From positions 7,980 to 71,979 of IMG/VR virus record IMGVR_UViG_3300037743_000151: DNA of 64,000 bases, one strand, 5' to 3'. The position numbers and the translations under genes are program-made. The notes beneath the pieces were generated by a model. That model was not told the origin of the DNA. It worked only from the letters and a program-made list of their open reading frames with translations, and made no database searches. The number at the start of each line of letters is the position of its first letter. Positions within the stretch are counted from its first letter, which is position 1. Source of the stretch: a virus. This document shows, in pieces, positions 14,004 through 57,659 of the stretch.

Positions 14004-14162
14004 GTGACCCGCCGCCGCACCACCACCCACCGCATCGGCCTACACAACCCGCTCGGACGCTTGGGCTTCACCGTGCTGGCGGCATTCGCACTCCTCAACG
14101 GACTCCTACTGCCCGGCCTCATCTGCACCGCCATCGCCATCTACGCCTGGAGGAACCGGTGA
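14004..14162 (+). CDS. Small membrane protein (52 aa)
   Basis: VTRRRTTTHRIGLHNPLGRLGFTVLAAFALLNGLLLPGLICTAIAIYAWRNR. GTGA overlap with the next gene. Confidence 0.4.
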   Translation: MTRRRTTTHRIGLHNPLGRLGFTVLAAFALLNGLLLPGLICTAIAIYAWRNR

Positions 14163-25126: not shown

Positions 25127-25684
25127 ATGAGCGCCTACCCGGCCCGCTGCCCCGCCCGCAACCTCAACGGCCGCATGTGCGACAAACCCGCCGGCCAAGG
25201 CACCCACCATTTGGGGTACGGAACATGCATCTGGCACCGGGGCGGACACCGCAACGTCGAGGAGGCATGGACCATGGCGCAAGAGATCGCAGCCGAACGC
25301 GACATCACCCCGCACGAAGCGCTACTCGGCCTCGTCCGCACAGCCGCCGCACGAGCAGCATGGACCGACAACATCATTTTCCAGCAGCTCCGCGACCACG
25401 CCGACGGCGGCGGCGACCCGCTGAAACCACCGGACGAACTGGTGCCCTGGCTGCGGCAGTCCCGTGAGGAACGCAGGCTCGCCGCGACCACCGCCAAACT
25501 CGCCGTCGACGCAGGGGTGATGGTCGCATTGGAACGCAGGCTGGACCTGGAAGGCGAGCTGGTGGCCGCGGCCCTGTCCGCTGCGCTGGACGCGGTGGAG
25601 CTGACGCACGAGCAGCGGGTGGCCGCGCTCGGCGCCGCGCAGCAGCACCTGATGCTGGCCGGGGGAGACACGGCCGCAGCCTGA
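25127..25684 (+). CDS. Putative small-terminase-like or DNA-binding protein (uncertain)
   Basis: N-terminal CPARNLNGRMCDKPAGQGTHHLGYGTCIWHRG motif and a helical C-terminus. Confidence 0.35.
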   Translation: MSAYPARCPARNLNGRMCDKPAGQGTHHLGYGTCIWHRGGHRNVEEAWTMAQEIAAERDITPHEALLGLVRTAAARAAWTDNIIFQQLRDHADGGGDPLKPPDELVPWLRQSREERRLAATTAKLAVDAGVMVALERRLDLEGELVAAALSAALDAVELTHEQRVAALGAAQQHLMLAGGDTAAA

Positions 25685-25687
25685 CGG

Positions 25688-25698
25688 CCGGAATGATC
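25688..25698 (+). promoter_or_regulatory. CCGGAATGATC motif, copy 1
   Basis: Exact 11-mer, 30 nt before ATG 25728. A partial second copy, CCGGAATGCGC, follows. Confidence 0.6.
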
Positions 25699-25727: not shown

Positions 25728-25997
25728 ATGCTCCTCACCCAGGACGGGCTACGCGCCCTCGAAGGCTTCACCCTCTGCGCCGCACCGCTATACGACGAGG
25801 ACTTCAACCGCGTCGAAGGCAACGACGGCATCATGCTCACCTGCCACCACGGGCACGAGCACTTCTGGCAGAAGCACTGGCCCGGACATGTTGCCGCACC
25901 GCGCCTCCGCGACCTGGTCCTCGTAGCGCAGTCGCACTGGGAGCAGGAGCACCGCGAGACGCAGGCTGAGAACGCGGAAGCCGAGGTGGCCAAGTGA
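25728..25997 (+). CDS. Hypothetical protein
   Basis: ORF; its stop overlaps GTG 25994. Confidence 0.5.
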   Translation: MLLTQDGLRALEGFTLCAAPLYDEDFNRVEGNDGIMLTCHHGHEHFWQKHWPGHVAAPRLRDLVLVAQSHWEQEHRETQAENAEAEVAK

Positions 25998-27019
25998 AGC
26001 GCCTGCTCCTCACCGGGGCGTCTGGGTTCGTCGGCGCCACCGTCCTCGCCCACGTCCTCACCCACACGGACTGGCATGTGACGTGTCCGGTGTCGTACCG
26101 GCACCACGGCGACGGCGCCCGCATCAACGCCGTCCTCGACGCCCAGCCCGACGCCCGCGCCCGGGTCGACGTCATCGCCCACGACCTGGCACTCCCGATC
26201 ACGCCGATCCTCGCCGACCGGATCGGCCCGGTCGACTACGTGTGGAACATTGCCTCCGAATCCCACGTCGACCGCAGCCTGTCGGACCCGGTGTCGTTCG
26301 TGCGGAACAACGTCGAACTCCAGCTGAACATGCTGGAGTACGCCCGCCTCGCGAAGCCCCGCATGTTCCTGCACATGTCGACGGATGAAGTGTTCGGGCC
26401 GGCCGAGCCGGGCTACCGGCATCACGAGTGGGACAGCATCCGCCCGTCGAATCCGTACGCGGCCAGCAAGGCGGCGCAGGAAGCGATCGCGTACTCGTAC
26501 TGGCGCGGGATGTCTGTGCCTTTGATCATCACCAACACGATGAACCTTCTTGCACCTGCGCCACAGGCCGCGGAGAAGTTCATTCCGAAGATCGCCCGCG
26601 CCATCTTCGGCGGCGAGAAGCTCACCGTCCACGCCTCCCCGGACGGCGCCTCCGGGTCACGCTGCTGGGTTGATGCCCGCGACTTCGCCGCCGCCTGGCT
26701 GTGGCTCACCGAGCATTTCGACGGCGACGAACGCCTCACCTACTACCCGACGATGCCCACCGGCCCGCTCAGGTACAACATCGTCGGCGAGGAGGCCACC
26801 AACCTCGACGTGGCGCTGCGGATGGCGGAATCGGCCGGCCGCACGCTGGACTACGAGCTGGTCGACTACCACTCGCAGCGGCCGGGCCACGATCACCGGT
26901 ATGCGCTCGACGGGTCGAAGCTCGCCGAACTGGGGTGGCCCGGCCCGCGGCCGCTGGATGACACGCTGTCGGACATCGTGAAGTGGTACGCCGACAACCC
27001 GCAGTGGCTCACCACGTGA
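25994..27019 (+). CDS. NDP-hexose 4,6-dehydratase-like SDR (RmlB-like)
   Basis: TGASGFVG, STDEVFG, YAASK and RPGHDHRYALDGSKL motifs. Confidence 0.8.
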   Translation: MKRLLLTGASGFVGATVLAHVLTHTDWHVTCPVSYRHHGDGARINAVLDAQPDARARVDVIAHDLALPITPILADRIGPVDYVWNIASESHVDRSLSDPVSFVRNNVELQLNMLEYARLAKPRMFLHMSTDEVFGPAEPGYRHHEWDSIRPSNPYAASKAAQEAIAYSYWRGMSVPLIITNTMNLLAPAPQAAEKFIPKIARAIFGGEKLTVHASPDGASGSRCWVDARDFAAAWLWLTEHFDGDERLTYYPTMPTGPLRYNIVGEEATNLDVALRMAESAGRTLDYELVDYHSQRPGHDHRYALDGSKLAELGWPGPRPLDDTLSDIVKWYADNPQWLTT

Positions 27020-27243
27020 GCACGCCAGTCCCCGGAGAGGGGCCCCACCGGCGGGCGGCTAAAGGCTGTCTGAACGACACCGCGAAGTGCCTCGACGAGA
27101 TCCCAATCGGCCGCGTGAACACCGACGTGATGACGGCGCACGCGGCGAAATCCCAAGTCTTCGCCACAGCCGCTGTCGCCCACGCCCTGCTGGAACTCGG
27201 CGATGTCCTGCGCGCCACGCTGCGCGGAGCAGCCGATGAGTGA
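27016..27243 (+). CDS. Hypothetical small protein
   Basis: GTGA overlap at 27016. Confidence 0.35.
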   Translation: MSTPVPGEGPHRRAAKGCLNDTAKCLDEIPIGRVNTDVMTAHAAKSQVFATAAVAHALLELGDVLRATLRGAADE

Positions 27244-27913
27244 CATCTTCCGCGCCGCGGTGATTCCGACGCGGGACCGTCACGACCTGCTCGCCGACTG
27301 CATCAACTCTGTGGTGGATCAGGTTGACCGGGTCATCGTTATCGACAACCTCTCTGATCCGCCGATCGATCCGGAGCCGTGGCACGGCAAGGTCGGCGTG
27401 GTCGCGATCCCGATCGACCCGCCGAACATCAGCACCCTGTGGAACGTCGGCCTTGCGCTCGCCGACGCATCCGCCCACGCCGAGCAGGCCGACCGGTGGG
27501 ACATCGCCGTCCTCAACTCCGACGTCACCGTCCCACCCGGATGGATCGACGGCCTGTCCACCGCGATGCGCTCCACCACCGCGGTCCTCGCCTACCCCGA
27601 CCAGCACGGCGGCCGACACCAGATCCTCCACACGAAGGCCGAGCCGGTGGACCTGCGGACTCGGATCACGGGCTACGCGTACCTGCTGCGCGGCGAGGCA
27701 GGGCTACGCCTCGACGAGACCCTCGCGTGGTGGTACGGCGACGACGACCTCGACTGGCGTGCCCGCGAGCAAGGCGGCGCGCTCCTCGTACCGGGCCTGG
27801 CCGTCGAACACCGCTGCCCGAACGGCTCGATGTACGAACGGCCGGAGCTGAAGACCCAGGCAGGCCGGGACCGCGAGACCTTCAAAGCGAAGTGGGGCCG
27901 CACCCCATGGTGA
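27236..27913 (+). CDS. Family-2-like glycosyltransferase
   Basis: AAVIPTRDR...VIVIDN...NSD...DDDLDWR pattern. Confidence 0.7.
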   Translation: MSDIFRAAVIPTRDRHDLLADCINSVVDQVDRVIVIDNLSDPPIDPEPWHGKVGVVAIPIDPPNISTLWNVGLALADASAHAEQADRWDIAVLNSDVTVPPGWIDGLSTAMRSTTAVLAYPDQHGGRHQILHTKAEPVDLRTRITGYAYLLRGEAGLRLDETLAWWYGDDDLDWRAREQGGALLVPGLAVEHRCPNGSMYERPELKTQAGRDRETFKAKWGRTPW

Positions 27914-27926
27914 ACAGGAGCACAAG

Positions 27927-28733
27927 TTGAAGATTGCAGTAACCGGCGGTAAAGGCCTCCTCGGCCAGGCCACCATCCAAGCAGCCGAAAACGCCGGCCA
28001 CGACGCGTGGGCGTTCGACCGCACCCAAGGCCTCGACATCCTCAGCAGCCTCGACGCACTCGACGGCGCCGACACAGTCATTCACCTGGCCGGGATGCTC
28101 GGCACCTCCGAGCTGTTCGACACCCCAGAGCAGGCAGTCGACGTCAACATCAAGGGCGCGCTACGGATCCTGCAATGGTGCCGAGAACACGACGCCGCAT
28201 ATGTCGGCATCACGATGCCCGACGTGTACCCGTCGGTGTACACCGCGACGAAAGTCTGTGCGCAGCGGCTGGCCACCGCCTGGCATGTGGCCTTTGGGCT
28301 GCCAGTCAGCCATGTACGGGCGTTCAATGCCTACGGTCCCGGGAGTCACATCGGTCCCGGCTATCCGAAGAAGATCGTCCCGACGTTTGCGCGTTCCGCA
28401 TGGGCCGGAAAGCCGCTCCCGGTGGTAGGCAACGGAGAACAAATCGTCGACCTGATCCACGTCGATGACGTGGCCCGGATGCTGATTGACGCGACACAGC
28501 ACGGCGACAACCCAGTGTTCGAAGCCGGCACCGGGCAGCCGGTCACGGTCAGCGAAGTAGCGCACAAGGTCCTCGACATCACCGGCAGCACGGCCGGGAT
28601 CGAGTACCAGCCGATGCGGCGCGGTGAAATCCCGGTGCAGGTCGCTGCGACCGGGGAGGGCTGGGACCGCTTGGACTGGCGGCCGCGCCTGGATTGGGAC
28701 CGGTTCGCGGAGGCCGTGGAGTCGTACCGGTGA
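27927..28733 (+). CDS. NAD-dependent epimerase/reductase (SDR)
   Basis: VTGGKGLLG Rossmann motif and YTATK catalytic motif. TTG start. Confidence 0.7.
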   Translation: MKIAVTGGKGLLGQATIQAAENAGHDAWAFDRTQGLDILSSLDALDGADTVIHLAGMLGTSELFDTPEQAVDVNIKGALRILQWCREHDAAYVGITMPDVYPSVYTATKVCAQRLATAWHVAFGLPVSHVRAFNAYGPGSHIGPGYPKKIVPTFARSAWAGKPLPVVGNGEQIVDLIHVDDVARMLIDATQHGDNPVFEAGTGQPVTVSEVAHKVLDITGSTAGIEYQPMRRGEIPVQVAATGEGWDRLDWRPRLDWDRFAEAVESYR

Positions 28734-29242
28734 CGGAGCGGATCTCCGCTGACTCGTGGCGGAAGCACAAGGGGCACGTAGCCCGCTACCAGTACGCCTC
28801 GCAGCATGTGCGGGCGGGCGAGACAGTAAACGACATCGCGTGCGGGGTCGGCTACGGCTCCGGGTTCTTTCTGCAAGGCCCGTACCGGGGCTACGACCGG
28901 CCCGGCGCGCCCGACCAGAGGTTCCCCGGCTCCTTCCACGCAGCGGACCTCAATGACCCCGGGTGGGAGCCCGCGCCGGCGGATGTGACGGTGTGCTTCG
29001 AGACGCTGGAGCATGTCAAGGATCCGGCCCGGCTGGCGCAGGTGATTTCCCGTACGACACGCAGGTTGATCGTCGTGTCGGTGCCGGTGGTGCCGACCAG
29101 GCACATCAACCCGTACCACTTGCACGACTTCACCGCCGAGGAGATCCCGCCGCTGTTCGACGGGTTTGAGATCGCTGATGAGTGGCCGCAGCCGGAGGAG
29201 CTTGCTCACGTGTGGCTGTTCGAACGGAGTAGCAATGCCTGA
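28730..29242 (+). CDS. Class I SAM-dependent methyltransferase
   Basis: NDIACGVGYGSGF motif I and FETLEHV. GTGA overlap. Confidence 0.7.
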   Translation: MTERISADSWRKHKGHVARYQYASQHVRAGETVNDIACGVGYGSGFFLQGPYRGYDRPGAPDQRFPGSFHAADLNDPGWEPAPADVTVCFETLEHVKDPARLAQVISRTTRRLIVVSVPVVPTRHINPYHLHDFTAEEIPPLFDGFEIADEWPQPEELAHVWLFERSSNA

Positions 29243-29891
29243 CATTGCGATCATCACCGCGGTCTATGACGCTTTCGACACGGTCAAGCCCGTCCTGCCG
29301 CAGACCGGTGCGGATGTGGAGTGGATCCTCGTCACCGACACGCCTCCGGACGCCGAGGCCGCGCAGGGCTGGACGGTGGTGCATGAGGCGCGGCCGGACA
29401 TGCTGCCGGTGCGGGCGGCGAAGGCGGCGAAGTTCGAGCCGTGGAAGTACACGGCCGCGGCCGCGAGTATCTGGGTGGACGCCTCGTTCCGTGTTGTCTC
29501 GCCTCGGTTCGCAGTCGAGGCCATGGAGTATGCGAAGCCGATTGCGCAGTTCGTGCATCCGTGGCGGGACTGCCTGTATGCGGAGGCGATAGAGATTGCT
29601 GCGCTCGGCATGGACCCGGATGGTGTGGCGGCGTGGCAGACGCGCCGGTACCGGGAGGCCGGTCACCCGGCGGGGTGGGGGTTGTGGGCGGCCGGCGTCA
29701 TCGCCCGTCGGCATACGGCCGGGGTGAAGCGGATGGGTGCGGCGTGGGCGCGGGAGGTGGCGGGCGGGTCGGCGCGGGATCAGGTGTCGCAGCCGCACGT
29801 CCTGCGGGAAGCGAGGCTGCGCCCGGCCAGCTTGCCGGGTACGCATCTGGCGAACGCGTGGCTGAAGTACGAGGGGAGCGGACGGCATTGA
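29235..29891 (+). CDS. DUF616-type glycosyltransferase-like protein
   Basis: IAIITAVYDAFD...WILVTD...AAKAAKFEPWKY...IWVDASF pattern. Confidence 0.55.
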   Translation: MPDIAIITAVYDAFDTVKPVLPQTGADVEWILVTDTPPDAEAAQGWTVVHEARPDMLPVRAAKAAKFEPWKYTAAAASIWVDASFRVVSPRFAVEAMEYAKPIAQFVHPWRDCLYAEAIEIAALGMDPDGVAAWQTRRYREAGHPAGWGLWAAGVIARRHTAGVKRMGAAWAREVAGGSARDQVSQPHVLREARLRPASLPGTHLANAWLKYEGSGRH

Positions 29892-30013
29892 GCGGCGGCG
29901 ACGAATGCCCCAAGGGTGGCGAGCATGACTGGGTCAAGCCGCACCCGCTCCCGGCAGATCACAAGTACGAGTGCGCCGCATGCGGGCACTACGACCTCGA
30001 CGACTACATCTAG
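29888..30013 (+). CDS. Small zinc-ribbon-like protein (41 aa)
   Basis: TTG start overlapping the upstream stop. ECPKGGEHDW...YECAACGHY. Confidence 0.3.
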   Translation: MSGGDECPKGGEHDWVKPHPLPADHKYECAACGHYDLDDYI

Positions 30014-30023
30014 TGAGGCACGA

Positions 30024-30269
30024 ATGAGCGAGCAAGTACCGAGCGTTGGCCGAATTGTCCACTACACGAGCTACGGCACACCGGGCGGCGAGTACGGCCA
30101 AGAGTGCCGGGCTGCCATCGTGACTGAGGTCGGGCCCGACAACGGCACCAGCTTCCCGAACCTTGGGCTGTGCGTCCTCAACCCGACCGGCATGTTCTTC
30201 AACCGGGATGTGCCTGCCGGGGGTAACGCCGACGGTGGTACGTGGCACTGGCCGGAGCGTGTCGGATGA
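30024..30269 (+). CDS. Hypothetical small protein
   Basis: In-frame ATG 30024. Confidence 0.5.
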   Translation: MSEQVPSVGRIVHYTSYGTPGGEYGQECRAAIVTEVGPDNGTSFPNLGLCVLNPTGMFFNRDVPAGGNADGGTWHWPERVG

Positions 30270-30703
30270 GACTGGAGATCGGCGGCGGGAAGCTCCTGTC
30301 AGCAGGCTGGACCAACCTCGACCCCAACCACGGCACCGGCGACTGGCGGCGCCTCGCACAAGACACGCCCTGGCCCACCGGCGACCACACGGTAGAGGCC
30401 ATGCGCGCGAGCCACGTCATGGAGCACATCCCCGCCGGGACTGAGCGGATCGCGGTTCTCAACGAAGCCCACCGCGTCCTGCGCCCCGGGGCCGTGTTCG
30501 AGATCCGCGTACCCAACGCCCTGTCCGGAACCTGGCACGCCTACGCCGACCCGACGCACGTCTCCTTCTGGTGCGTGGAGTCGTTCCACTACCTCGACGG
30601 TTCGAAGGCAGCCCACGCCGACTACGGACTCCTGCCGTGGAAGACGATCGAACTCCGCATTCAAGGCGACAACGAGGTCTTGTGGAAGGGGGTGCCGCGA
30701 TGA
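30266..30703 (+). CDS. SAM-dependent methyltransferase-like protein
   Basis: LEIGGG...SHVMEHIP...RVLRPGAVFEIRVPN. ATGA overlap. Confidence 0.6.
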   Translation: MRLEIGGGKLLSAGWTNLDPNHGTGDWRRLAQDTPWPTGDHTVEAMRASHVMEHIPAGTERIAVLNEAHRVLRPGAVFEIRVPNALSGTWHAYADPTHVSFWCVESFHYLDGSKAAHADYGLLPWKTIELRIQGDNEVLWKGVPR

Positions 30704-30915
30704 GCGCCCGCGACGCTCTCATGGGCGCGCTGTGGGACAACTACACCATGGCCGAGAAGAACGCGTTCATCGACGCCTTCGCGCACGAGCTGGCGGAGAA
30801 GCAGCGGGCTGCGGCCAAATCCGAGTTCGACCGGGATGTCTACATCGACGAACTCAGCATGCAGTTCACGGGCAAGGTGATCGACCTCATCGACCCCGAG
30901 GCGCAGAAGCCGTGA
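30700..30915 (+). CDS. Hypothetical protein with AHELAEKQRA...DLIDP module
   Basis: ATGA overlap at 30700. Shares 28 of 29 nt with 18797-18825 on the opposite strand. Confidence 0.5.
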   Translation: MSARDALMGALWDNYTMAEKNAFIDAFAHELAEKQRAAAKSEFDRDVYIDELSMQFTGKVIDLIDPEAQKP

Positions 30916-31481
30916 CCGAACCTGACGTCACGGTCGTCGTCCCCTACCACGCGGCCCGCGTGAAGAACGGCATGCTCAAACGCGCGGCCGACTCCGTCAA
31001 CGCGCAGACCGCACCCCACCACCTGATCGCCGTCGAAGACACCCAACGCCAGGGCGCCGGTGCCACCCGGCAACGCGGCCTCGACCAAGTCGCCACCGAG
31101 TGGACCGCGTTCCTCGACAGCGACGACGAGATGGACCCCACCCACCTGGCGCAGCTCCTCGCCTGCGCCGAGACCACGAGTGCCGACTACGTGTACCCGT
31201 GGTTCCGCGTGAAGGGCGGCCGCGACCCGTTCCCCATGTTCTTCGGCAAACCCTGGGACAACGCCCACCCCCACTCCACCACCATCACCATCCTCGTCCG
31301 CACCGAACTCGCACAGCAGGTCGGCTTCCGGAATGTGGCAGGCGAGGACTTCACGTTCACGAAGGACTGCATCATCGCCGGGGCAAAGATCGTCCACCTA
31401 CCGGTTCGTAGCTGGACGTGGGTCCACCATGGGCGGAACTCCTCCGGCCGACCCGACCGTGGCGACGCCCGCAACCGCTGA
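30912..31481 (+). CDS. Family-2-like glycosyltransferase
   Basis: VTVVVPYH...FLDSDDEM. GTGA overlap. Confidence 0.65.
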   Translation: MTEPDVTVVVPYHAARVKNGMLKRAADSVNAQTAPHHLIAVEDTQRQGAGATRQRGLDQVATEWTAFLDSDDEMDPTHLAQLLACAETTSADYVYPWFRVKGGRDPFPMFFGKPWDNAHPHSTTITILVRTELAQQVGFRNVAGEDFTFTKDCIIAGAKIVHLPVRSWTWVHHGRNSSGRPDRGDARNR

Positions 31482-31561: not shown

Positions 31562-31783
31562 ATGAAGGTCAGACTGTCCGCCTACCTAGACGGTCCGCGA
31601 TCCCTGAACCGCGAGCTGCCCGCGGACTGGTGGTCACGCACCGAGGACCAGCGGGCCGAGTGGATCAACGAGTACAAATCGGATCTGGTTGAAATGCTGC
31701 GCCAGAACACGCTGGCATACGAATGGGAACCCGGGTGGGAAGGGCTGCTACACGGAGAAGGCCCGGACGACCTCGATAACTGA
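31562..31783 (+). CDS. Hypothetical protein
   Basis: GGAGGG SD before ATG 31562. Confidence 0.45.
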   Translation: MKVRLSAYLDGPRSLNRELPADWWSRTEDQRAEWINEYKSDLVEMLRQNTLAYEWEPGWEGLLHGEGPDDLDN

Positions 31784-31939: not shown

Positions 31940-33352
31940 ATGGGCACCAACGACAGGGCGACAGTAGCGGCACGCGCCGCCGCCCTCCTCGGCGCCCAAC
32001 TCACCCCACGCTGGACACCACTACCCCACCAAGTACCGCCCCCCGGCAACTGGTATGGCTGGCTCCTCCTCGCCGGCCGCGGCGCCGGCAAGACCGACGC
32101 CTGCGCCGAATACATCGCCCGCCACATCGCCGGACCACCCTGCCTCCCGGGCCCGGTACCCCACTGGGTCGGCATCATTGCGCCCACCCAGGGCGACGCC
32201 GTCACCGCCTGCGTGTCCGGGCCGTCCGGTATCAAAGCCCATGACCCCACCGCCGTCGGCCCGATCACCACGGCAGGCGGCACCGTCGTCCGCTGGCCCA
32301 ACGGGAGTCAGGCCAAGCTGTACGGGGCGAATAGTCCGGAAGATGTGGAAAGGCTCCGCGCTGGGGGCAATACCTGCGTGGCCTGGTTGGAGGAATTTGC
32401 CGCGTGGCGGCACATGCAGGACGCCTTCGACCAACTCCGCTTCGGCCTCCGCTCCGGTCCGCGCCCACACTGGGTCGCCTCCACCACCCCGAAGCCCAAA
32501 CCCCTACTGAAGCGCCTCATGCAAGGCGAGATCCCGAACGTCGTCACCACCACGGCGACCATGTACGACAACCCACATCTCCCGCAGCACATCCGCGACA
32601 TGCTCGAAGACGCCTACGCGGGAACCGACCTCGGCGAGCAGGAGCTGTACGGCCGACTCCTCGACGAGATCAAGAACGCCCTATGGCGAAGGAAGTTCCT
32701 CGCCGCCGGCCGCATGCGCCTCGACGACCTGCCGGACCTCATCCGCCGAACGGTCGGCGTCGACCCTTCCGGCGGCGCAGGGGAGCAGGGCATCGTCGTC
32801 ACCGCGAAGTCGGGGCTTCTGCTACCCGGACTGCTGCCCGGCCCCGAGCTGGACCCCGACGAACCGGCCCCGGTCGGTGCACCACGCCCGCAGCCGCACG
32901 GCTTTGTCCTGGACGACCGGTCGTGCCAGCTCCCGCCGGAGGGCTGGGGGCAGCGCGCGGTACAGGCCGCGATCGACTGGGAGGCCGAGGACGTGGCGGT
33001 AGAGGTCAACTACGGGGGGGACCAAGCGATCGCCGTGATCCGCACAGCGATGGAGAAACTCGGGGTGGATATCCCGATCCGGAAGGTGCGCGCGTCGCAG
33101 GGCAAGGCGATCCGTGCACAGCCAGTGGCCGCGCTCAGCGCTCAGGGCCGGTGGCATCACGCGGGCACATTCCCGGAATTGGAGGACCAGCTAGCCACGT
33201 GGTACCCGGAGTTGGGCTGGTCGCCCGATCGCCTCGACGCACTCGTATGGGGACCATGGCATATGAAACTCGTGGGCACGATGACGCACGGCCAGGGTTC
33301 GTTGGGCGGGGATCTGGCCAGAAAGCAGATTGTCGGGGGGCGGCTACGGTGA
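31940..33352 (+). CDS. Terminase large subunit
   Basis: Walker A LLAGRGAGKTD, WLEEFA, and a C-terminal nuclease-like VGVDPSGG...VEVNYGGD. Confidence 0.85.
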   Translation: MGTNDRATVAARAAALLGAQLTPRWTPLPHQVPPPGNWYGWLLLAGRGAGKTDACAEYIARHIAGPPCLPGPVPHWVGIIAPTQGDAVTACVSGPSGIKAHDPTAVGPITTAGGTVVRWPNGSQAKLYGANSPEDVERLRAGGNTCVAWLEEFAAWRHMQDAFDQLRFGLRSGPRPHWVASTTPKPKPLLKRLMQGEIPNVVTTTATMYDNPHLPQHIRDMLEDAYAGTDLGEQELYGRLLDEIKNALWRRKFLAAGRMRLDDLPDLIRRTVGVDPSGGAGEQGIVVTAKSGLLLPGLLPGPELDPDEPAPVGAPRPQPHGFVLDDRSCQLPPEGWGQRAVQAAIDWEAEDVAVEVNYGGDQAIAVIRTAMEKLGVDIPIRKVRASQGKAIRAQPVAALSAQGRWHHAGTFPELEDQLATWYPELGWSPDRLDALVWGPWHMKLVGTMTHGQGSLGGDLARKQIVGGRLR

Positions 33353-40600: not shown

Positions 40601-41044
40601 GTCGGTCAGATCACTGTGGGGACGGGGCATGCGCCGCTGCATTTCGGGGCGCAGCCTGCGGCGGAGCACTACGACAACACGGGCACCGCGGTGGCGGATG
40701 TCGCGGTCGGCAACGACAAGCACGGCATTTGGGTCGCGGGTGCGATCCGTCCGAACGCCGACCCTCTGAGTGTGTACGAGCTGCGGGCATCCGGGCGGGT
40801 GTCGGGTGACTGGCGGCGTATCGGCGGCCAGCTGCGCATGGTCGGACTGCTCGGGGTCAACGTCGCCGGGTTCCTGGAGGAGGCGAAGATGCGGACGTTG
40901 GTTTCCGCTGGGCGGCCTCAGGCGTTGGTGGCGGCGGGTGTTCCGAAGCAGCGGTGGGCCATGTCGAAGGACGAGATGGAGCGTCAGGCCGTGCGGGTCG
41001 TGATGCGGATGCTCAGCCGTCGCGTGCACCCGGGAAGGGGGTGA
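37673..41044 (+). CDS. Polyprotein: 2H-phosphoesterase-like domain + MuF-like minor capsid domain + capsid maturation protease-like region
   Basis: HLTLYF and HICAAY motifs at the N-terminus. MuF signature CKPCRDIDGTEY...GGARCRGTLV. Protease-like segment LPVPLRWNKEDSHGG...LRGVSIDADS. Alternative start ATG 37709. Confidence 0.7.
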   Translation: MDSLAAAADGSHMSGAMVALMPTPEDAARLAIEGGEDAEQLHLTLYFLGDDGDAWTEDQQAELIGSLRALAASQLSGPITGFAFGANHWNAGSDSPSWVWAVGDDRDREADAPSLAAARTVTTMALEDIHERPYLPVQHSPWVPHICAAYSDELDLIIALEERLGPVVFDRIRVAFAGDYTDIPLGGAVTAAAECTCPPQAAAESDSDPDCRHHAYNILIAAGASLRRQPTELELASRVDFAAMDKAWHEAVDSTVEAWADIQTAMRAEVTASIQAAAEADDLDSLDGLTIDTADGAALLIARMIAYAREAGEQQQAEAEAQGVSVPEWSLDDEAITAAAIRDRLRQIGRTAARVLGVGLVQSAVRQAMRVWGSGSAQQVAAQVDEHLAGLSGAAVEEQVGGAMSAAQNEGRLAVLAVAPAALHVATEALDLNSCKPCRDIDGTEYDTLTAARTAYPSGGYTGCLGGARCRGTLVTVWPQDSEQAAAGMILAASAATIPPTDHEQGGGSVPYSIVQDHPDCGADKPWAVTKDADNSLMGCHDSEAAAEEQRAALYAEEGGMPNDMDKPDDEDMDYAGKTAPWRGPLAIEGQVTGDGREFAPEALTWAELPVPLRWNKEDSHGGEARTIAVNVGRIDKIWRDGSLIMGEGVLDLSDDDGRRVHAKIEGKFLRGVSIDADSIADADVEFVWPEDANAGTEEGEEGDLLEMLFAQPEKMIFHGGRIRAATLVDIPAFAEAYIALLDEAGAVVAGGQPIGEAALQLALQEMGAVGTHTTATSDGPWDAGVNEKRIDGPLTVAKARAAYGWYDGAAVSDGELPKSAAKFLHHEINADGTAGAANLAACSASIGALHGARGGTSIPDADRRGVYDHVAGHLRDAGQEPEPFRSLRSVTASAPASHPAMTGMWKPPAEWFSDPDLPFHCGIVVTDQGRLYGHAAPWGACHIGFDGECVTVPRESEHSHYMTGETVCDDGSRVAVGQITVGTGHAPLHFGAQPAAEHYDNTGTAVADVAVGNDKHGIWVAGAIRPNADPLSVYELRASGRVSGDWRRIGGQLRMVGLLGVNVAGFLEEAKMRTLVSAGRPQALVAAGVPKQRWAMSKDEMERQAVRVVMRMLSRRVHPGRG
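39132..39142 (+). promoter_or_regulatory. CCGGAATGATC motif, copy 3 (inside the polyprotein ORF)
   Basis: Exact 11-mer, 58 nt before in-frame GTG 39200, which is preceded by AAGGAGG. Confidence 0.5.
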
Positions 41045-56573: not shown

Positions 56574-57659
56574 GTGAAGGTCCTCGTATACCCCAGCGAC
56601 AACTACGGCTGCGGCTCATTCCGGATGCGGTGGCCTGGTGAGGCTTGCGCCGCGACCGGGCACGACGTCCACGTCGTGAGCCAGGACAAGCGGTCCGTGC
56701 GCCTGGTCATGGAGCGCGACACAGTCCGCGATGTCCTCGTCGACGGCGTGGACGTCGTGGTTCTCCAGCGGGTGACGCACGCCCACATGGCGCAGGCCGT
56801 CGGCGTGCTCCGCGCGAAGGGCGTCACGGTGGTGGTCGACGTAGACGACGACCTGTCCGCGATCCATCCCTCGAACCCGGCATGGGCGATGCACCATCCC
56901 GGCAATGAGGGCCGGCGGATGGTGGGCGGGAAGGTGAACCGGCATTCGTGGCGCAACCTCGCGGCGGCGTGCCGGGACGCGACGCTGGTGACAGTATCGA
57001 CGCCGGCACTGCTGGACGTGTACGCCCGGCACGGGCGAGGGGTGGTGCTGCCGAACTATCTGCCGGATCACTACTACGGGCTGCCGCGTACGGATTCGGA
57101 TGTGGTCGGCTGGCCTGGTTCATTCCACTCGCACCCGAACGATCCGGAGGCGGTGGGCGGTGCGGTTGCGCGTCTCGTCGACGAGGGCGCTCAGTTCGTG
57201 ATGCGTGGGGATCCGTCGGGTGCGGGGAAGGCGTTCGGTCTGGCGGCGGATCCTGCGGGTGGTGGGGTGTCGATCGAGGAGTGGCCGCGGGCGGTTGCCG
57301 AGTTGGGGGTGGGGATCGCGCCGCTGGCGGACACGAAGTTCAATATGTCCAAGTCTTGGTTGAAGTGCGTCGAGATGTCAGCCTGTGGAGTGCCGTGGGT
57401 GGCGTCGCCGCGCGCCGAGTACAAGCGCATTCACGCGATGGGCGCTGGGCTTCTCGCTGACCGGCCGCGGACTTGGTACCGGGAGGTGAAGCGGCTGCGG
57501 GAATCGGCTGCCATGCGTCAGGAGCTGAGCGAGGCGGGGCGCGCGGTAGCCGAGCAGCTCCGGTTGTCTCAGCACGCGTGGAAGTGGATGGAGGCTTGGG
57601 AGAGGGCGTACGAGTTGCAGCAGGCTACTCCGCAGAGAGCGATAGCCCTTCCAGCGTAG
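56574..57659 (+). CDS. Glycosyltransferase (GT-B/GT4-like)
   Basis: VKVLVYPSDNYGCGSFRMRWP... About 360 aa with two Rossmann-like halves. Confidence 0.55.
   Translation: MKVLVYPSDNYGCGSFRMRWPGEACAATGHDVHVVSQDKRSVRLVMERDTVRDVLVDGVDVVVLQRVTHAHMAQAVGVLRAKGVTVVVDVDDDLSAIHPSNPAWAMHHPGNEGRRMVGGKVNRHSWRNLAAACRDATLVTVSTPALLDVYARHGRGVVLPNYLPDHYYGLPRTDSDVVGWPGSFHSHPNDPEAVGGAVARLVDEGAQFVMRGDPSGAGKAFGLAADPAGGGVSIEEWPRAVAELGVGIAPLADTKFNMSKSWLKCVEMSACGVPWVASPRAEYKRIHAMGAGLLADRPRTWYREVKRLRESAAMRQELSEAGRAVAEQLRLSQHAWKWMEAWERAYELQQATPQRAIALPA

What the first reader, a model, noticed from the sequence alone, without database searches (positions are those of the whole stretch)
25994..31481. Phage-encoded deoxysugar, methyltransferase and glycosyltransferase cluster immediately upstream of the large terminase
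Ten or eleven tightly coupled genes make up the cluster.
- An RmlB-like NDP-hexose 4,6-dehydratase (TGASGFVG, YAASK, RPGHDHRYALD).
- A second SDR epimerase/reductase.
- Two SAM-dependent methyltransferases.
- Two GT2-like glycosyltransferases and a DUF616-type glycosyltransferase-like protein.
- Small unknown ORFs.

No nucleotidyltransferase (RmlA-like) gene is present, so a host NDP-glucose pool would be the substrate. A further GT-B-type glycosyltransferase lies after the lysis cassette (56574..57659).

The set could make and transfer a (methylated) 6-deoxyhexose.

The cluster sits between a small-terminase-like gene and the large terminase, and it follows copy 1 of the CCGGAATGATC motif. 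That placement suggests late expression.

Virion glycosylation by phage glycosyltransferases is known in some mycobacteriophages. Other phages use such enzymes to modify host surface polymers or their own DNA. Which target applies here cannot be told from the sequence.
Basis: partly seen in the sequence, partly recalled or inferred. Interest (0 to 1): 0.7.

Follow-up and report, generated by a model that had tools for sequence, protein, structure and literature searches.

The report
Phage sugar-attaching gene cluster before terminase
A temperate Streptomyces phage carries, just upstream of its DNA-packaging gene, a conserved set of enzymes that make a deoxy-sugar and attach and methylate sugars, most likely to coat its own particle, though the key enzyme and attachment site differ from the only proven phage example.

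Summary
Window 25994-31481 holds 11 same-strand, mostly overlapping ORFs:
- an RmlB-type dTDP-glucose 4,6-dehydratase with intact motifs
- a second extended SDR
- two class-I SAM methyltransferases
- two GT2 transferases
- a DUF616-like protein with a confidently predicted GT-A fold
- four small ORFs

No RmlA is present, although relatives carry one beside the dehydratase. A weakly supported GT-B lies at 56574-57659.

The window is a temperate, integrase-bearing Streptomyces phage from a large uncultured family. The family's invariant core is GT2a, DUF616-like, MT2 and GT2b. The dehydratase, SDR2, MT1 and RmlA are swappable accessories.

All enzymes are soluble. No maker of hydroxymethyl pyrimidines was found. 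The cluster follows a motif shared with head and tail genes. Homologues occur in the lytic phage KimJongPhill.

Best reading (about 0.45): late-expressed glycosylation of virion proteins. It is not a member of the Che8/Corndog system. It lacks a gp110/gp38 homologue and the (G/D)-S C-termini, and capsid and tail-tube tails do not co-vary with the cluster.

Rivals are envelope glycopolymer modification and DNA glycosylation. I rate it a new variant of a known kind, of moderate interest.

The parts
25688..25698 (+). CCGGAATGATC motif copy 1, 40 nt upstream of gB. It is a candidate late regulatory or promoter element that heads the cluster transcription unit.
   Evidence: There are five exact + strand copies, all in the late half (25688, 35853, 39132, 48110, 56534). 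At <=1 mismatch there are 8 hits against 1.3 expected. The motif is conserved between gA and the cluster in L005, L008, L009, L012, L016 and L017, and ahead of the portal in most relatives.
25127..25684 (+). gA, a conserved gene of unknown function that precedes the cluster.
   Evidence: It hits phrog_3678 (unknown function) and no Pfam or NCBIfam family. It has no similarity to KimJongPhill gp7. Homologues precede the cluster in 35 loci.
25728..25997 (+). gB, an 89-aa ORF of unknown function. It is the first gene after the motif and overlaps the SDR1 start by 4 nt.
   Evidence: Coding frame, junction. It has no family hits. Homologues occur only in L013 and L014.
25994..27019 (+). SDR1, an RmlB-type NDP-hexose (probably dTDP-glucose) 4,6-dehydratase. 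It is an accessory module in the family.
   Evidence: TIGR01181 scores 6e-52 at 177 bits, below the 365 equivalog cutoff. It aligns full-length with solved dTDP-glucose 4,6-dehydratases, for example 2hun at 1e-34. T-D-E, YxxxK and RPGHDxRY are invariant in 22 family members. RmlA is adjacent in relatives. It is 55% identical to KimJongPhill gp4 and 50% to Racecar gp163.
27130..27243 (+). Small ORF between SDR1 and GT2a. Its start is uncertain (27004, 27016 or 27130). Its stop overlaps the GT2a start by 8 nt.
   Evidence: Frame signal across 27000-27180. It is conserved at 57-69% in L004, L006, L007 and L010. It has no family hit.
27236..27913 (+). GT2a, a GT2-like (GT-A) glycosyltransferase and a core member of the cluster.
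   Evidence: PF00535 scores 25.8 bits, above the 23.3 cutoff, on the N-terminal part only. It is 60% identical to KimJongPhill gp109, annotated 'glycosyltransferase'. N-x-D and D-D motifs are invariant in 27 sequences. It is present in nearly all close relatives.
27927..28733 (+). SDR2, a short extended SDR. It is an NDP-sugar 4-epimerase or 4-ketoreductase and the specific activity is unresolved.
   Evidence: PF01370 scores 3e-32. The best solved relatives are Pal, UDP-glucose 4-epimerases and MoeE5. GxxGxxG and YTATK are invariant in 29 sequences. It is present without SDR1 in L009/L153, L018 and L021. It is absent from L142, which has SDR1.
28730..29242 (+). MT1, a class-I SAM-dependent methyltransferase. 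It is a rare accessory gene.
   Evidence: Methyltransf_23 scores 23.3 bits and Methyltransf_11 20.8 bits, both just under cutoff. Motif I is DIACGVGYG. Homologues occur only in L142, where MT1 takes the place of SDR2, and in L163. It has no DNA-methyltransferase family hits.
29235..29891 (+). g6, a DUF616/TOD1_MUCI70-like GT-A-fold glycosyltransferase and a core member.
   Evidence: phrog_26101 'glycosyltransferase' scores 1e-10. Its own PF04765 score is 14.2 bits, below the 21.4 cutoff. Homologues carry PF04765 and are named DUF616 in Streptomyces genomes. The AlphaFold model has pLDDT 88 and pTM 0.87. Foldseek matches ABO GTA/GTB and the WrtF fucosyltransferase at probability 1.0 and TM up to 0.63. 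D82 and D182 are invariant.
29888..30013 (+). A 41-aa Cys-containing ORF of unknown function. Its TTG start overlaps the g6 stop.
   Evidence: Frame signal. It is conserved at 77-79% in L004, L006 and L010. A 41-aa ORF sits at the same position in L021. It has no family hit.
30024..30269 (+). g8, an 81-aa conserved actinophage protein of unknown function. It is an accessory gene.
   Evidence: phrog_2293 scores 1e-26. It shares a 38-nt stretch at 95% identity with Gordonia phages. It is present in about half of the relatives.
30266..30703 (+). MT2, a small class-I SAM-dependent methyltransferase and a core member.
   Evidence: phrog_6636 'methyltransferase' scores 3e-8. Methyltransf_11 and Methyltransf_23 are sub-threshold. 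E-I-G-G-G and H-V-M-E-H are invariant in 29 sequences. It has weak similarity to KimJongPhill gp5 (E 8e-4).
30700..30915 (+). A 71-aa ORF of unknown function, coupled on both sides by ATGA and GTGA overlaps.
   Evidence: It is partly conserved in L004, L007, L008, L010, L012 and L020. It has no family hit.
30912..31481 (+). GT2b, a GT2 (GT-A) glycosyltransferase, a core member and the last enzyme of the cluster.
   Evidence: PF00535 scores 3e-10 at 40.7 bits. phrog_14775 'glycosyltransferase' scores 6e-46. D-x-D-D and E-D are invariant in 38 sequences. It is 60% identical to KimJongPhill gp107 and 39% to Racecar gp177. It has weak similarity to the GT2 domain of Che8 gp108 (E 2e-5).
31562..31783 (+). 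g12, a 73-aa ORF with a GGAGG ribosome-binding site, between the cluster and TerL. Its function is unknown and it is probably not part of the glycosylation set.
   Evidence: It has no family hits. It is conserved only in L006.
31940..33352 (+). Large terminase subunit, the downstream boundary of the cluster.
   Evidence: phrog_2 and phrog_979 hits. It is 44% identical to TerL of Streptomyces phage mu1/6.
56574..57659 (+). Remote fourth transferase, probably GT-B/GT4-like. It lies at the end of the rightward late block, between the lysis genes and the leftward lysogeny module.
   Evidence: phrog_7162 'glycosyltransferase' scores 4e-29. Pfam Glyco_trans_1_2 is sub-threshold at E 1e-3, though homologues carry PF13524. 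It is a full-length homologue of KimJongPhill gp6 (26%, E 1e-19) and Racecar gp174 (34%). Those phages also carry SDR1 and GT2b homologues. The structure model was poor. A motif copy lies 40 nt upstream in the window, but in only 1 of 27 relatives.

Best explanation
The cluster is a phage-borne glycan-building cassette that is expressed with the late (packaging, head and tail) genes and works in the host cytoplasm.

The conserved core is three soluble GT-A-type transferases (GT2a, the DUF616-like g6 and GT2b) plus the remote GT-B-like enzyme. Together they would assemble a short hetero-oligosaccharide on a cytoplasmic acceptor, and MT2 (with MT1 in this phage) would O-methylate it.

Accessory nucleotide-sugar enzymes set which sugars are available. 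SDR1 converts host dTDP-glucose to dTDP-4-keto-6-deoxyglucose, which is the entry point to 6-deoxyhexoses. SDR2 either epimerises another NDP-sugar at C4 or reduces the 4-keto intermediate.

The most likely acceptor is one or more virion proteins, giving a glycan-decorated particle. This is the role shown for the glycosyltransferases of mycobacteriophages Che8, Corndog and Myrna, but here it would use an unrelated initiating enzyme and a different attachment site.

Shown: the enzyme families, intact catalytic motifs, solubility, conservation and modularity, genomic placement and the shared motif.

Inferred: late expression, donor sugars, order of action, O-methylation of sugar rather than another substrate, and the acceptor.
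For: **Enzymology.** Catalytic motifs are invariant across 22-38 homologues of each enzyme.

**dTDP branch.** An RmlA-type thymidylyltransferase (TIGR01207, 2.6e-50) lies directly after SDR1 in L005/L135, L150, L137/L138, L017/L148 and L011.

**Cytoplasmic action.** No cluster protein has a transmembrane segment, and there is no flippase or polyprenol-linked transferase.

**Late and packaging context.**
- The genes are translationally coupled and lie directly upstream of TerL in more than 40 relatives.
- They are headed by the CCGGAATGATC motif. Its five exact copies are all on the + strand in the late half, ahead of the portal, a head gene and the tail chaperone.

**Recurrent placement of MT+GT blocks in packaging and head modules of unrelated phages.**
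- KimJongPhill gp4-6 lie upstream of TerL.
- Corndog gp35-38 lie between the portal region and the capsid gene.
- Che8 gp108-110 lie at the genome end next to the terminase end.
- Cellulophaga phi17:1 gp41-42 lie between portal/MuF and protease/capsid.

**Precedent.** Capsid and tail-tube glycosylation by phage GTs is experimentally established in Che8, Corndog and Myrna, as summarised in PMC12363180 and PMC11256854.

**Against lysogenic conversion as the conserved role.** Homologues of SDR1, GT2a, GT2b and GT-B occur in KimJongPhill, which has no annotated integrase or repressor, and in large Arthrobacter phages.

**Diversification.** The accessory genes (SDR1 in two forms, RmlA, SDR2, MT1) vary around a fixed transferase core. 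This is the pattern expected for a diversifying surface glycan.
Against: - No direct evidence identifies the acceptor.
- There is no homologue of the essential glycosyltransferases Che8 gp110 or Corndog gp38.
- The capsid and tail-tube proteins lack the (G/D)-S C-termini shared by the Che8 and Corndog subunits.
- The conserved Thr/Pro-rich tail-tube C-terminus and the Ser/Thr/Gly-rich capsid tail also occur in distant relatives that have no cluster within 10 kb of the portal. Capsid tail variants do not track cluster variants. The co-variation test therefore gives no support.
- The motif before GT-B is conserved in only 1 of 27 relatives, and before the cluster in only 6 of 17.
- In KimJongPhill the GT2a/MT/GT2b genes lie on the minus strand of the right arm, among small genes separated by gaps and next to tRNA genes, not in the structural module.
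- That the motif is a late promoter is an inference.
- The phage is temperate, and GT-B lies next to the lysogeny module.
Confidence: 0.45

Rival explanations
1. The enzymes modify host cell-envelope glycopolymers. They would glycosylate and methylate a lipid-linked wall-polymer precursor, such as a teichoic-acid-like or other Streptomyces wall glycopolymer, on the cytoplasmic face of the membrane. This would alter the phage receptor for superinfection exclusion, either in lysogens or during infection. Prophage TarP does this for Staphylococcus wall teichoic acid.
For: - The phage is temperate: it has a tyrosine integrase at 60445-61338 with WhiB-like and HTH genes beside it.
- Integrated copies lie in large contigs of Streptomyces genomes.
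- GT-B lies between the lysis genes and the lysogeny module, which is a classical moron position.
- Soluble GT2 enzymes can act on lipid-linked polymers without a flippase. GT2b's best solved match is PglI, which acts on a lipid-linked oligosaccharide.
- dTDP-6-deoxyhexoses are typical wall-polysaccharide sugars (established knowledge).
Against: - The main cluster is embedded and translationally coupled in the late block between gA and TerL, not next to the integrase.
- It shares the late-gene motif.
- No sigma-70-like promoter was found in 22-36 kb. That scan is weak for Streptomyces.
- The same enzyme set occurs in KimJongPhill, which has no annotated lysogeny genes, and in large Arthrobacter phages.
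- Four transferases plus methyltransferases and sugar-nucleotide enzymes are more than known seroconversion cassettes carry.
- There is no membrane component.
Confidence: 0.2
2. The transferases hypermodify phage DNA with sugars before packaging, to protect it from host restriction and other nucleases. T-even phages do this, as do the recently described phage clusters that combine a cytosine C5-methyltransferase, a 5mYOX (TET-like dioxygenase) and glycosyltransferases.
For: - The cluster is immediately next to the terminase.
- Known DNA-glycosylating clusters can include GT-A and GT-B enzymes, consecutive GTs and a partner sugar epimerase. They are sometimes found near terminase genes (bioRxiv 10.1101/2023.12.21.572611).
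- GT2a and SDR2 form an adjacent GT-plus-epimerase-like pair.
- KimJongPhill, which shares four of the enzymes, encodes two thymidylate-synthase homologues, a dCMP deaminase, a dUTPase and its own polymerase.
Against: - Every ORF of 130 aa or more in the early arm, and the larger ORFs elsewhere, were scanned with Pfam and/or PHROGs. None is a thymidylate-synthase-like hydroxymethylase, a C5 or N6 DNA methyltransferase, a TET/JBP dioxygenase or a DNA polymerase. No known route to a 5-hydroxymethyl-pyrimidine acceptor exists here.
- MT1 and MT2 match small-molecule-type class-I methyltransferases, not DNA methyltransferases.
- The 'DNA methylase' next to the DUF616-like GT in Cellulophaga phages is a generic PF13578 methyltransferase sitting inside the head module.
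- About 8 kb of the 71,979-bp source contig is outside the window, and about a dozen proteins have no family assignment, so exclusion is not absolute.
Confidence: 0.08
3. The enzymes act on a small molecule or a non-virion host target. One possibility is glycosylating and methylating a host-made anti-phage metabolite, such as an anthracycline- or aminoglycoside-type compound, to inactivate it. Another is modifying a host protein.
For: - The enzymes are soluble GTs and small-molecule-type methyltransferases.
- MT1's weak solved-structure matches are natural-product methyltransferases such as MitM, at non-significant E-values.
- The host genus is Streptomyces, which is known to make DNA-intercalating anti-phage metabolites (own knowledge, not tested here).
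Against: - A counter-defence would be expected early, not in the late packaging block.
- Homologous sets occur in Arthrobacter phages, and more distantly in cyanobacterial, E. coli and Cellulophaga phages, whose hosts lack such metabolites.
- Four different transferases are unnecessary for inactivating a drug.
- No evidence points specifically to this reading.
Confidence: 0.05

Closest known systems
Virion glycosylation systems of mycobacteriophages Che8 (gp108-110), Corndog (gp35-38) and Myrna (Freeman et al. 2023, Cell Host Microbe 31:1216; not held here, summarised in PMC12363180, PMC11256854 and PMC13313380)
   Same: - Both occur in actinobacteriophages.
- Both have several soluble phage-encoded glycosyltransferases plus a SAM methyltransferase.
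- Both are placed in or beside the packaging and head gene block.
- GT2b is weakly similar to the GT2 domain of Che8 gp108 (E 2e-5).
- The expected outcome is the same: glycans on particle proteins.
   Different: - There is no homologue of the essential GT (Che8 gp110 / Corndog gp38).
- The capsid and tail-tube proteins lack the C-terminal (G/D)-S shared by the Che8 and Corndog subunits.
- This cluster adds nucleotide-sugar enzymes: an RmlB-type dehydratase, a second SDR and, in relatives, RmlA. It also adds a DUF616-like GT and a GT-B.
- The host is Streptomyces and the phage is temperate.
- Glycosylation is unproven here.
Glycosylation-type genes of Streptomyces phages KimJongPhill and Zuko (Zukovirus) and of Arthrobacter phages Racecar, Mimi, Atuin and Talia1610. 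These are annotated but uncharacterised.
   Same: These are true homologues.
- KimJongPhill: gp4 = SDR1 (55%), gp109 = GT2a (60%), gp107 = GT2b (60%), gp6 = GT-B (26%, full length), gp5 resembles MT2.
- Racecar: gp163 = SDR1 (50%), gp174 = GT-B (34%), gp177 = GT2b (39%).
- The KimJongPhill block of SDR, MT and GT is also immediately upstream of the terminase.
   Different: - In those phages the set is split between two or more loci.
- No SDR2 or DUF616-like homologue was detected there.
- The phages are unrelated in their structural genes.
- KimJongPhill has no annotated lysogeny genes and carries nucleotide-metabolism genes that the window phage lacks.
- No experimental data exist for any of them.
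Bacterial dTDP-6-deoxyhexose pathway (RmlA and RmlB, followed by RmlC/RmlD or other 4-ketoreductases)
   Same: - SDR1 has the fold, the T-D-E and YxxxK catalytic residues and the RPGHDxRY nucleotide-binding motif of RmlB. It aligns end to end with solved RmlB enzymes.
- Relatives place an RmlA-type gene directly after it.
   Different: - SDR1 scores below the curated equivalog cutoff (177 against 365 bits).
- The window has no RmlA, and no RmlC-type 3,5-epimerase or RmlD was detected.
- SDR2 is not an RmlD equivalog, and it occurs independently of SDR1. The final sugar is therefore unknown.
Phage DNA sugar-hypermodification clusters (T4 alpha/beta-GT; C5-MT + 5mYOX + GT clusters, bioRxiv 10.1101/2023.12.21.572611)
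   Same: - Both have phage-encoded GT-A and GT-B enzymes.
- Both have consecutive GTs.
- Both pair a GT with a sugar epimerase.
- Such clusters are occasionally found close to a terminase.
   Different: The defining enzyme that makes 5hmC or 5hmU (a ThyS-like hydroxymethylase, or a C5-MT plus TET-like dioxygenase) was not found in the window. The methyltransferases here are not DNA methyltransferases.
Prophage-encoded envelope-glycan modifiers (Staphylococcus TarP; enterobacterial GtrABC seroconversion cassettes)
   Same: A temperate phage carries GT2-type transferases that could change a surface polymer.
   Different: - There is no GtrA-type flippase or membrane-embedded transferase.
- The main cluster lies in the late packaging block, not at the lysogeny junction.
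- It has many more enzymes.
- Homologues occur in a phage without annotated lysogeny genes.

Membership tests
dTDP-glucose 4,6-dehydratase (RmlB; TIGR01181) - SDR1 | Extended-SDR fold with an N-terminal GxxGxxG NAD-binding motif | tested here: met
   PF01370 scores 1.9e-35 and PF16363 4.8e-34. TGASGFVG is present, with its glycines invariant in 22 homologues.
dTDP-glucose 4,6-dehydratase (RmlB; TIGR01181) - SDR1 | Catalytic Thr-Asp-Glu plus Tyr-x-x-x-Lys, and the RPGHDxRY nucleotide-binding motif | tested here: met
   STDEVFG, YAASK and RPGHDHRY align with the same motifs of 2hun. T, D, E, Y, K and R-P-G-H-D-x-R-Y are invariant in 22 sequences.
dTDP-glucose 4,6-dehydratase (RmlB; TIGR01181) - SDR1 | Score at or above the curated equivalog cutoff | tested here: not met
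   It scores 176.7 bits against a cutoff of 365.1. It is a divergent phage clade, so the exact substrate is inferred.
dTDP-glucose 4,6-dehydratase (RmlB; TIGR01181) - SDR1 | Genomic pairing with a glucose-1-phosphate thymidylyltransferase (RmlA) | tested here: inconclusive
   RmlA is absent from the window. An RmlA-like gene (TIGR01207, 2.6e-50) lies directly after SDR1 in eight relative loci.
dTDP-glucose 4,6-dehydratase (RmlB; TIGR01181) - SDR1 | Conversion of dTDP-glucose to dTDP-4-keto-6-deoxyglucose in vitro | not testable with these tools
   This needs a biochemical assay.
Glycosyltransferase family 2 (PF00535) - GT2b and GT2a | Pfam score above the gathering threshold | tested here: met
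   GT2b scores 40.7 bits and GT2a 25.8 bits against a cutoff of 23.3. The GT2a match covers only residues 20-51.
Glycosyltransferase family 2 (PF00535) - GT2b and GT2a | DxD-type metal and nucleotide-sugar motif, plus a downstream acidic (ED/DD) motif | tested here: met
   GT2b has L-D-S-D-D-E and G-E-D-F. GT2a has N-S-D and G-D-D-D-L-D-W. The key Asp and Glu residues are invariant in 38 and 27 sequences respectively.
DUF616 / TOD1_MUCI70 glycosyltransferase-like (PF04765) - g6 | Pfam score above the gathering threshold | tested here: not met
   Its own score is 14.2 bits against a cutoff of 21.4, E 0.027. Many homologues at 61-84% identity carry precomputed PF04765, and NCBI names them DUF616 proteins.
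DUF616 / TOD1_MUCI70 glycosyltransferase-like (PF04765) - g6 | GT-A (Rossmann-like alpha/beta) glycosyltransferase fold | tested here: met
   The AlphaFold model has pLDDT 88.1 and pTM 0.87. Foldseek against the PDB gives ABO GTA/GTB and the WrtF fucosyltransferase at probability 1.0, E about 2e-5 and TM 0.53-0.63.
GT-B fold / GT4-like glycosyltransferase - 56574-57659 | Profile match to GT-B families, or a confident two-Rossmann-domain model | tested here: inconclusive
   phrog_7162 'glycosyltransferase' scores 4e-29. Pfam Glyco_trans_1_2 is sub-threshold at 19.5 bits against 25, though homologues carry PF13524. The AlphaFold model has pLDDT 48.5 and is unusable. The profile against the PDB gives only E 0.27, on the MshA EX7E region.
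Class-I SAM-dependent methyltransferases - MT1, MT2 | Profile match and glycine-rich motif I | tested here: inconclusive
   MT1 scores 23.3 bits (cutoff 27) and 20.8 bits (cutoff 21.2). MT2 scores 19.8 and 19.9 bits against the same cutoffs. MT2 hits phrog_6636 at 3e-8. Motif I is DIACGVGYG in MT1 and LEIGGG in MT2, and it is conserved. The substrate is unknown.
Che8/Corndog-type virion glycosylation system | Homologue of the essential glycosyltransferase (Che8 gp110 / Corndog gp38; PMC12363180) | tested here: not met
   blastp of all cluster proteins against Che8 gp108-111 and Corndog gp34-39 gave no hit to gp110 or gp38 better than a 16-residue match at E 0.26. There was only a weak match of GT2b to the GT2 domain of gp108.
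Che8/Corndog-type virion glycosylation system | Capsid and tail-tube subunits with the C-terminal acceptor. All four Che8 and Corndog subunits end in (G/D)-S; this is my observation from the sequences. | tested here: not met
   The C-termini are Che8 MCP KTGS, Che8 MTP SDGS, Corndog MCP LVGS and Corndog gp49 KGDS. The window MCP ends GTVRV and the MTP ends TTLAA. No structural protein in the window ends in (G/D)-S.
Che8/Corndog-type virion glycosylation system | Phage GT and MT genes placed in or next to the packaging and structural gene block | tested here: met
   The cluster lies between gA and TerL. This placement is conserved in more than 40 relatives.
Che8/Corndog-type virion glycosylation system | O-linked glycans detectable on virion proteins | not testable with these tools
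   This needs glycostaining or mass spectrometry of particles.
Phage DNA sugar hypermodification (hydroxymethyl-pyrimidine plus GT) | An enzyme that makes 5hmC or 5hmU: a ThyS-like hydroxymethylase, or a C5-MT plus TET/JBP-like dioxygenase | tested here: not met
   None was found among the ORFs scanned with Pfam or PHROGs. These include every early-arm ORF of 130 aa or more. About 8 kb of the source contig was not seen.
Phage DNA sugar hypermodification (hydroxymethyl-pyrimidine plus GT) | Glycosylated bases in virion DNA | not testable with these tools
   This needs nucleoside LC-MS.
Gtr-type seroconversion cassette | Membrane components: a GtrA flippase, a membrane-anchored GtrB and a polytopic GtrC | tested here: not met
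   No cluster protein has a transmembrane segment. The highest 19-residue hydropathy is 1.75, and that lies in the Rossmann beta1 strand of SDR1.

The most novel reading that the evidence does not exclude
These temperate Streptomyces phages, abundant in metagenome assemblies, coat their particles with a phage-specified, methylated glycan that contains a 6-deoxyhexose. The donor sugars come partly from the phage's own dTDP-sugar enzymes. The glycan is started by a transferase and attached at a site unrelated to those of the mycobacteriophage system. This would be an independent origin of phage particle glycosylation. It would operate in an environmental setting where shielding from antibodies cannot be the selective force. 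The swappable accessory genes (two dehydratase types, RmlA, SDR2, MT1) would generate glycan diversity between otherwise similar phages.
Probability: 0.35. Interest if true: 0.7.

Novelty: new variant of a known kind. Interest (0 to 1): 0.5.

Why it matters
Particle glycosylation by phage-encoded enzymes has so far been shown only in a few mycobacteriophages, where it is discussed mainly as an antibody shield. This cluster defines a large, conserved family of temperate Streptomyces phages. The family has hundreds to more than a thousand homologues in metagenome assemblies and prophages in sequenced Streptomyces.

The family carries a richer cassette: its own deoxysugar entry enzyme, up to four transferases and one or two methyltransferases. 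It lacks the known essential transferase and the known acceptor signature.

If the acceptor is the virion, glycosylation would be broader, and would have evolved more than once, among actinophages. Its function in these phages (stability, avoiding non-productive adsorption, evading host surface defences) would become directly testable. KimJongPhill and Zuko are cultured phages that carry homologues, and the Streptomyces lysogens are available.

If the acceptor is instead the host wall or DNA, that would be a new mechanism for this phage group.

The modular swapping of sugar-nucleotide genes around a fixed transferase core also offers a natural experiment in glycan diversification.

Tried and rejected
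1. **Near-identical phage.** None is in the phage collection at nucleotide level. An exact-protein lookup of SDR1 and of P0001 found no stored contig.
2. **Co-variation test for the acceptor.** I collected about 80 tail-tube loci and 80 portal loci and compared capsid and tail-tube C-termini with cluster content. The Thr/Pro-rich tail-tube end and the Ser/Thr/Gly-rich capsid tail are present whether or not the cluster is detectable, and tail variants do not follow cluster variants. The test gives no support and cannot refute.
3. **GT-B dependence on SDR1.** Rejected. GT-B is present on the contig of L018, which lacks SDR1.
4. **The motif as a conserved signal before GT-B.** Rejected. Only 1 of 27 relatives has it.
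5. **MT1 as unique to the window.** Rejected. L142 and L163 have it.
6. **SDR1 and SDR2 as an obligate dehydratase/reductase pair.** Rejected as established fact, because the two occur independently.
7. **GT-B fold by structure prediction.** The model was too poor (pLDDT 48). A broadened profile against solved structures gave only E 0.27.
8. **Sequence searches against solved structures.** GT2a, g6, GT-B, MT1 and MT2 gave nothing significant.
9. **'Phosphoheptose isomerase' PHROG hit at 9991-10881 as an extra sugar gene.** Pfam does not confirm it.
10. **The 'DNA methylase' next to the DUF616-like GT in Cellulophaga phages as support for a DNA target.** Rejected. It is a generic PF13578 methyltransferase inside the head module.
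11. **gA as small terminase.** No profile or homology support.
12. **Literature.** The primary virion-glycosylation paper is not held. No paper describes the Zukovirus or phi92-like homologues functionally.

Full report
**1. What is there**

The window has 68% G+C. It encodes about 101 genes by a position-specific composition model. It is a tailed-phage genome. It carries the following genes:
- a replication initiator
- a large terminase at 31940-33352
- a portal at about 35917-37698
- a 1123-aa MuF/protease-like protein
- a 586-aa major head protein at 41238-42998
- a major tail protein at 43934-44611
- a tape-measure protein and an endolysin
- a leftward lysogeny module, with a tyrosine integrase at 60445-61338 and WhiB-like and HTH proteins

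An identical g6 protein lies on a 71,979-bp JGI contig. Homologues are annotated in Streptomyces chromosomes and large scaffolds. This is therefore a temperate Streptomyces phage from an uncultured family. No close relative exists in the cultured-phage collection at nucleotide level. The closest TerL is that of Streptomyces phage mu1/6, at 44%.

**2.

Between 25994 and 31481 there are 11 + strand ORFs. Eight of their junctions are 4- or 8-nt start/stop overlaps.

- **SDR1.** It is an RmlB-type 4,6-dehydratase. It aligns end to end with solved dTDP-glucose 4,6-dehydratases, with STDEV(F/Y)G, YxxxK and RPGHDxRY in register. TIGR01181 is the best NCBIfam hit at 6e-52, although below the equivalog cutoff.
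- **SDR2.** It is a short extended SDR. Its nearest solved relatives are Pal, UDP-glucose 4-epimerases and MoeE5.
- **GT2b.** It is a clear GT2 (PF00535 at 40.7 bits; phrog_14775 at 6e-46).
- **GT2a.** It passes PF00535 marginally.
- **MT1 and MT2.** Both are small class-I SAM methyltransferases just under the Pfam cutoffs. Motif I is intact in both.
- **g6.** On its own it is sub-threshold for DUF616/TOD1_MUCI70. Its homologues carry that domain. A confident AlphaFold model (pLDDT 88) matches GT-A transferases such as ABO GTA/GTB and the WrtF fucosyltransferase.
- **Motif conservation.** Catalytic and cofactor motifs of all these proteins are invariant across 22-38 family members.
- **RmlA.** No RmlA gene is in the window.
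- **Remote transferase.** The gene at 56574-57659 is a PHROG glycosyltransferase (4e-29). Its GT-B fold is only weakly supported.
- **gA.** The gene upstream of the cluster has no terminase-family signal.

**3. Comparative anatomy**

Searches with GT2b, GT-B, the tail-tube protein and a portal profile recovered more than 150 related loci from uncultured viral contigs.

- **Order.** In close relatives (portal 55% identity or more) the order is conserved: gA, [SDR1], GT2a, SDR2, g6, [g8], MT2, GT2b, TerL, a DUF1360 membrane protein, portal.
- **Core.** The invariant core is GT2a, g6, MT2 and GT2b.
- **SDR1.** It occurs in a form about 90% identical to the window's and in a form about 50% identical, or it is absent (L009/L153, L018, L021).
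- **RmlA.** An RmlA-type thymidylyltransferase (TIGR01207, 2.6e-50) directly follows or sits beside SDR1 in eight loci, chiefly those with the ~50% form. This fixes the nucleotide as dTDP. It also explains the window's dependence on host dTDP-glucose.
- **SDR2 and MT1.** SDR2 is present without SDR1 in several loci. In L142, which has SDR1, MT1 takes SDR2's place. MT1 is otherwise found only in L163 and the window.
- **Consequence.** The sugar-nucleotide enzymes and MT1 are interchangeable accessories around a fixed transferase core.
- **Distant relatives.** Those with portal identity of 49-54% have no detectable cluster near the portal, even with family HMMs. Four of them keep a lone SDR1 upstream of TerL.

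**4. The same enzymes elsewhere**

- Streptomyces phage KimJongPhill (and Zuko) has homologues of SDR1 (55%), GT2a (60%), GT2b (60%) and GT-B (26%, full length), and a methyltransferase resembling MT2. One block, of SDR, MT and GT-B, is directly upstream of its terminase. The other is on the minus strand of the right arm.
- Large Arthrobacter phages of the Racecar group have SDR1, GT-B and GT2b homologues.
- KimJongPhill has no annotated integrase or repressor.
- More distant DUF616-like transferases in Cellulophaga phages sit with a generic methyltransferase inside the head-morphogenesis module. Corndog's MT+GT block is placed in a similar way.

**5. Clues to mechanism**

- **Solubility.** All cluster proteins are soluble. 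There is no flippase or polyprenol-linked enzyme, so the acceptor is cytoplasmic or on the inner face of the membrane.
- **The motif.** CCGGAATGATC has five exact copies, all on the + strand and all in the late half. At <=1 mismatch there are 8 hits against 1.3 expected. The copies lie ahead of the cluster, the portal, an internal start in the large head gene, the tail chaperone and GT-B.
- **Motif conservation.** The motif is conserved ahead of the cluster in 6 of 17 relatives and ahead of the portal in most of them. It is conserved ahead of GT-B in only 1 of 27.
- **Reading.** Late co-expression with the morphogenesis genes is the most economical reading, but it is an inference.

**6. The acceptor**

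- **DNA.** DNA glycosylation needs a 5-hydroxymethyl-pyrimidine maker. None was found among the ORFs scanned, which include every early-arm ORF of 130 aa or more. The phage has no polymerase or nucleotide-metabolism genes. The two methyltransferases are not of DNA type.
- **Lysogenic conversion.** This is disfavoured by the placement and coupling in the late block, and by homologues in a phage without annotated lysogeny genes. The phage is temperate, though, and GT-B adjoins the lysogeny module.
- **Virion proteins.** This reading has precedent in Che8, Corndog and Myrna. It fits the placement, the timing, the solubility and the diversifying accessories.
- **Limits of that reading.** The cluster is not a member of the Che8/Corndog system. 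The essential transferase (Che8 gp110 / Corndog gp38) has no homologue. The capsid and tail-tube subunits of Che8 and Corndog all end in (G/D)-S, and no structural protein here does.
- **Candidate sites.** The tail tube has a conserved C-terminal W-N-(V/I)-T-T-T-(A/P)-P-P-T motif, and the capsid has a variable Ser/Thr/Gly-rich tail. Both are possible attachment sites. Both also occur in relatives without a detectable cluster, and they do not co-vary with cluster type.

**7. Verdict**

- The best explanation is a late-expressed, cytoplasmic glycan-assembly cassette acting on virion proteins, at confidence about 0.45. Envelope-polymer modification follows at about 0.2, DNA glycosylation at about 0.08, and a small-molecule or other target at about 0.05. 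The remainder is unassigned.
- It is a new variant of a known kind: phage-encoded glycosylation cassettes of actinobacteriophages. It is distinguished by its own deoxysugar entry enzymes, a different transferase set and no known acceptor signature.
- Interest is moderate (0.5). It is not a great surprise to a specialist. It does define a large, tractable family in which the extent and purpose of phage particle glycosylation outside mycobacteriophages can be tested.

Noticed in passing
window 25688, 35853, 39132, 48110, 56534 (+ strand): CCGGAATGATC occurs five times exactly, only on the + strand and only in the late half. Each copy lies shortly upstream of a late gene start. It is conserved at the equivalent positions before the cluster and the portal in relatives, but before GT-B in only 1 of 27. 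It is a candidate late promoter or regulatory element.
   Followed up: partly
window 14159-15226 (+): A 355-aa early-arm protein (phrog_16651, unknown function) has a weak Sigma-70 region 4 match at its C-terminus (E 0.002). It could be a phage transcription factor or sigma-like protein that recognises the late motif.
   Followed up: no
window 37673-41044 (+): This is a single 1123-aa ORF. It combines an N-terminal RNA-ligase-like PHROG match, a MuF/portal-like middle part and a head-maturation-protease-like C-terminal part. A motif copy lies at 39132, and a GGAGG site plus GTG start lies near 39195, which suggests an internal start or nested gene.
   Followed up: no
window 43934-44611 (+), C-terminus; loci L051-L129: The tail-tube C-terminus W-N-(V/I)-T-T-T-(A/P)-P-P-T...T-T-L is conserved across about 75 relatives, down to 56% overall identity. 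These include relatives with no detectable glycosylation cluster.
   Followed up: yes
L217 5051-5872 and 7613-8422 (Che8); L003 20547-21779 and 24316-25131 (Corndog): The capsid and tail-tube subunits of the experimentally glycosylated mycobacteriophages all end in (G/D)-S: KTGS, SDGS, LVGS and KGDS. This is a simple candidate acceptor signature that could be used to screen other phages.
   Followed up: partly
L005 6535-7197 (also L135, L150, L137/L138, L017/L148, L011): Relatives encode an RmlA-type glucose-1-phosphate thymidylyltransferase directly after, or next to, their SDR1. These phages therefore make dTDP-glucose themselves, whereas the window phage does not.
   Followed up: yes
L196, L198, L200, L201 (SDR1 homologue just upstream of TerL): Distant relatives keep only the RmlB-type dehydratase (49-51% identity) before the terminase, with no detectable transferase within 10 kb. 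What a lone dehydratase does there is unexplained.
   Followed up: partly
L219 (KimJongPhill 22000-68000): KimJongPhill encodes two thymidylate-synthase homologues (gp49, gp78), a dCMP deaminase, a dUTPase, a thymidylate kinase and DNA polymerase I, in addition to its transferases. DNA hypermodification cannot be excluded in that phage.
   Followed up: no
L218 6534-8206 (Cellulophaga phage phi17:1 gp41-gp42): A DUF616-like glycosyltransferase and a gene annotated 'DNA methyltransferase' (on the basis of PF13578, a generic class-I methyltransferase family) sit between portal/MuF and prohead protease/capsid. The DNA-methylase label is probably wrong, and the pair resembles a head-module glycosylation cassette.
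   Followed up: partly
window 9991-10881 (+): This ORF hits PHROG 'phosphoheptose isomerase' at 1.7e-14 over residues 186-306 of the longer ORF, but Pfam gives no match. It may be a SIS-like domain, and its significance is unknown.
   Followed up: partly
window 30167-30204 (within g8): A 38-nt stretch is 95% identical to hypothetical genes near the right end of Gordonia phages Valary, Nubi, Savbucketdawg and PinkCoffee. g8 belongs to a widespread small actinophage protein family (phrog_2293) of unknown function.
   Followed up: no
window 45162-46340 (+): A tail-fibre-like protein is encoded between the tail-tube gene and the head-tail adaptor. Its N-terminal 86 residues match a PHROG annotated 'polysaccharide deacetylase', which suggests that the receptor is a glycan.
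   Followed up: no
E. coli phi92-like phages (hits H136-H171) and cyanophages (H15-H46, H130-H132): RmlB-type dehydratases, GT-B relatives (annotated 'putative disaccharide synthase') and DUF616-like transferases also occur in phi92-like coliphages and in T4-like cyanophages. No functional study was found in the library searched.
   Followed up: partly
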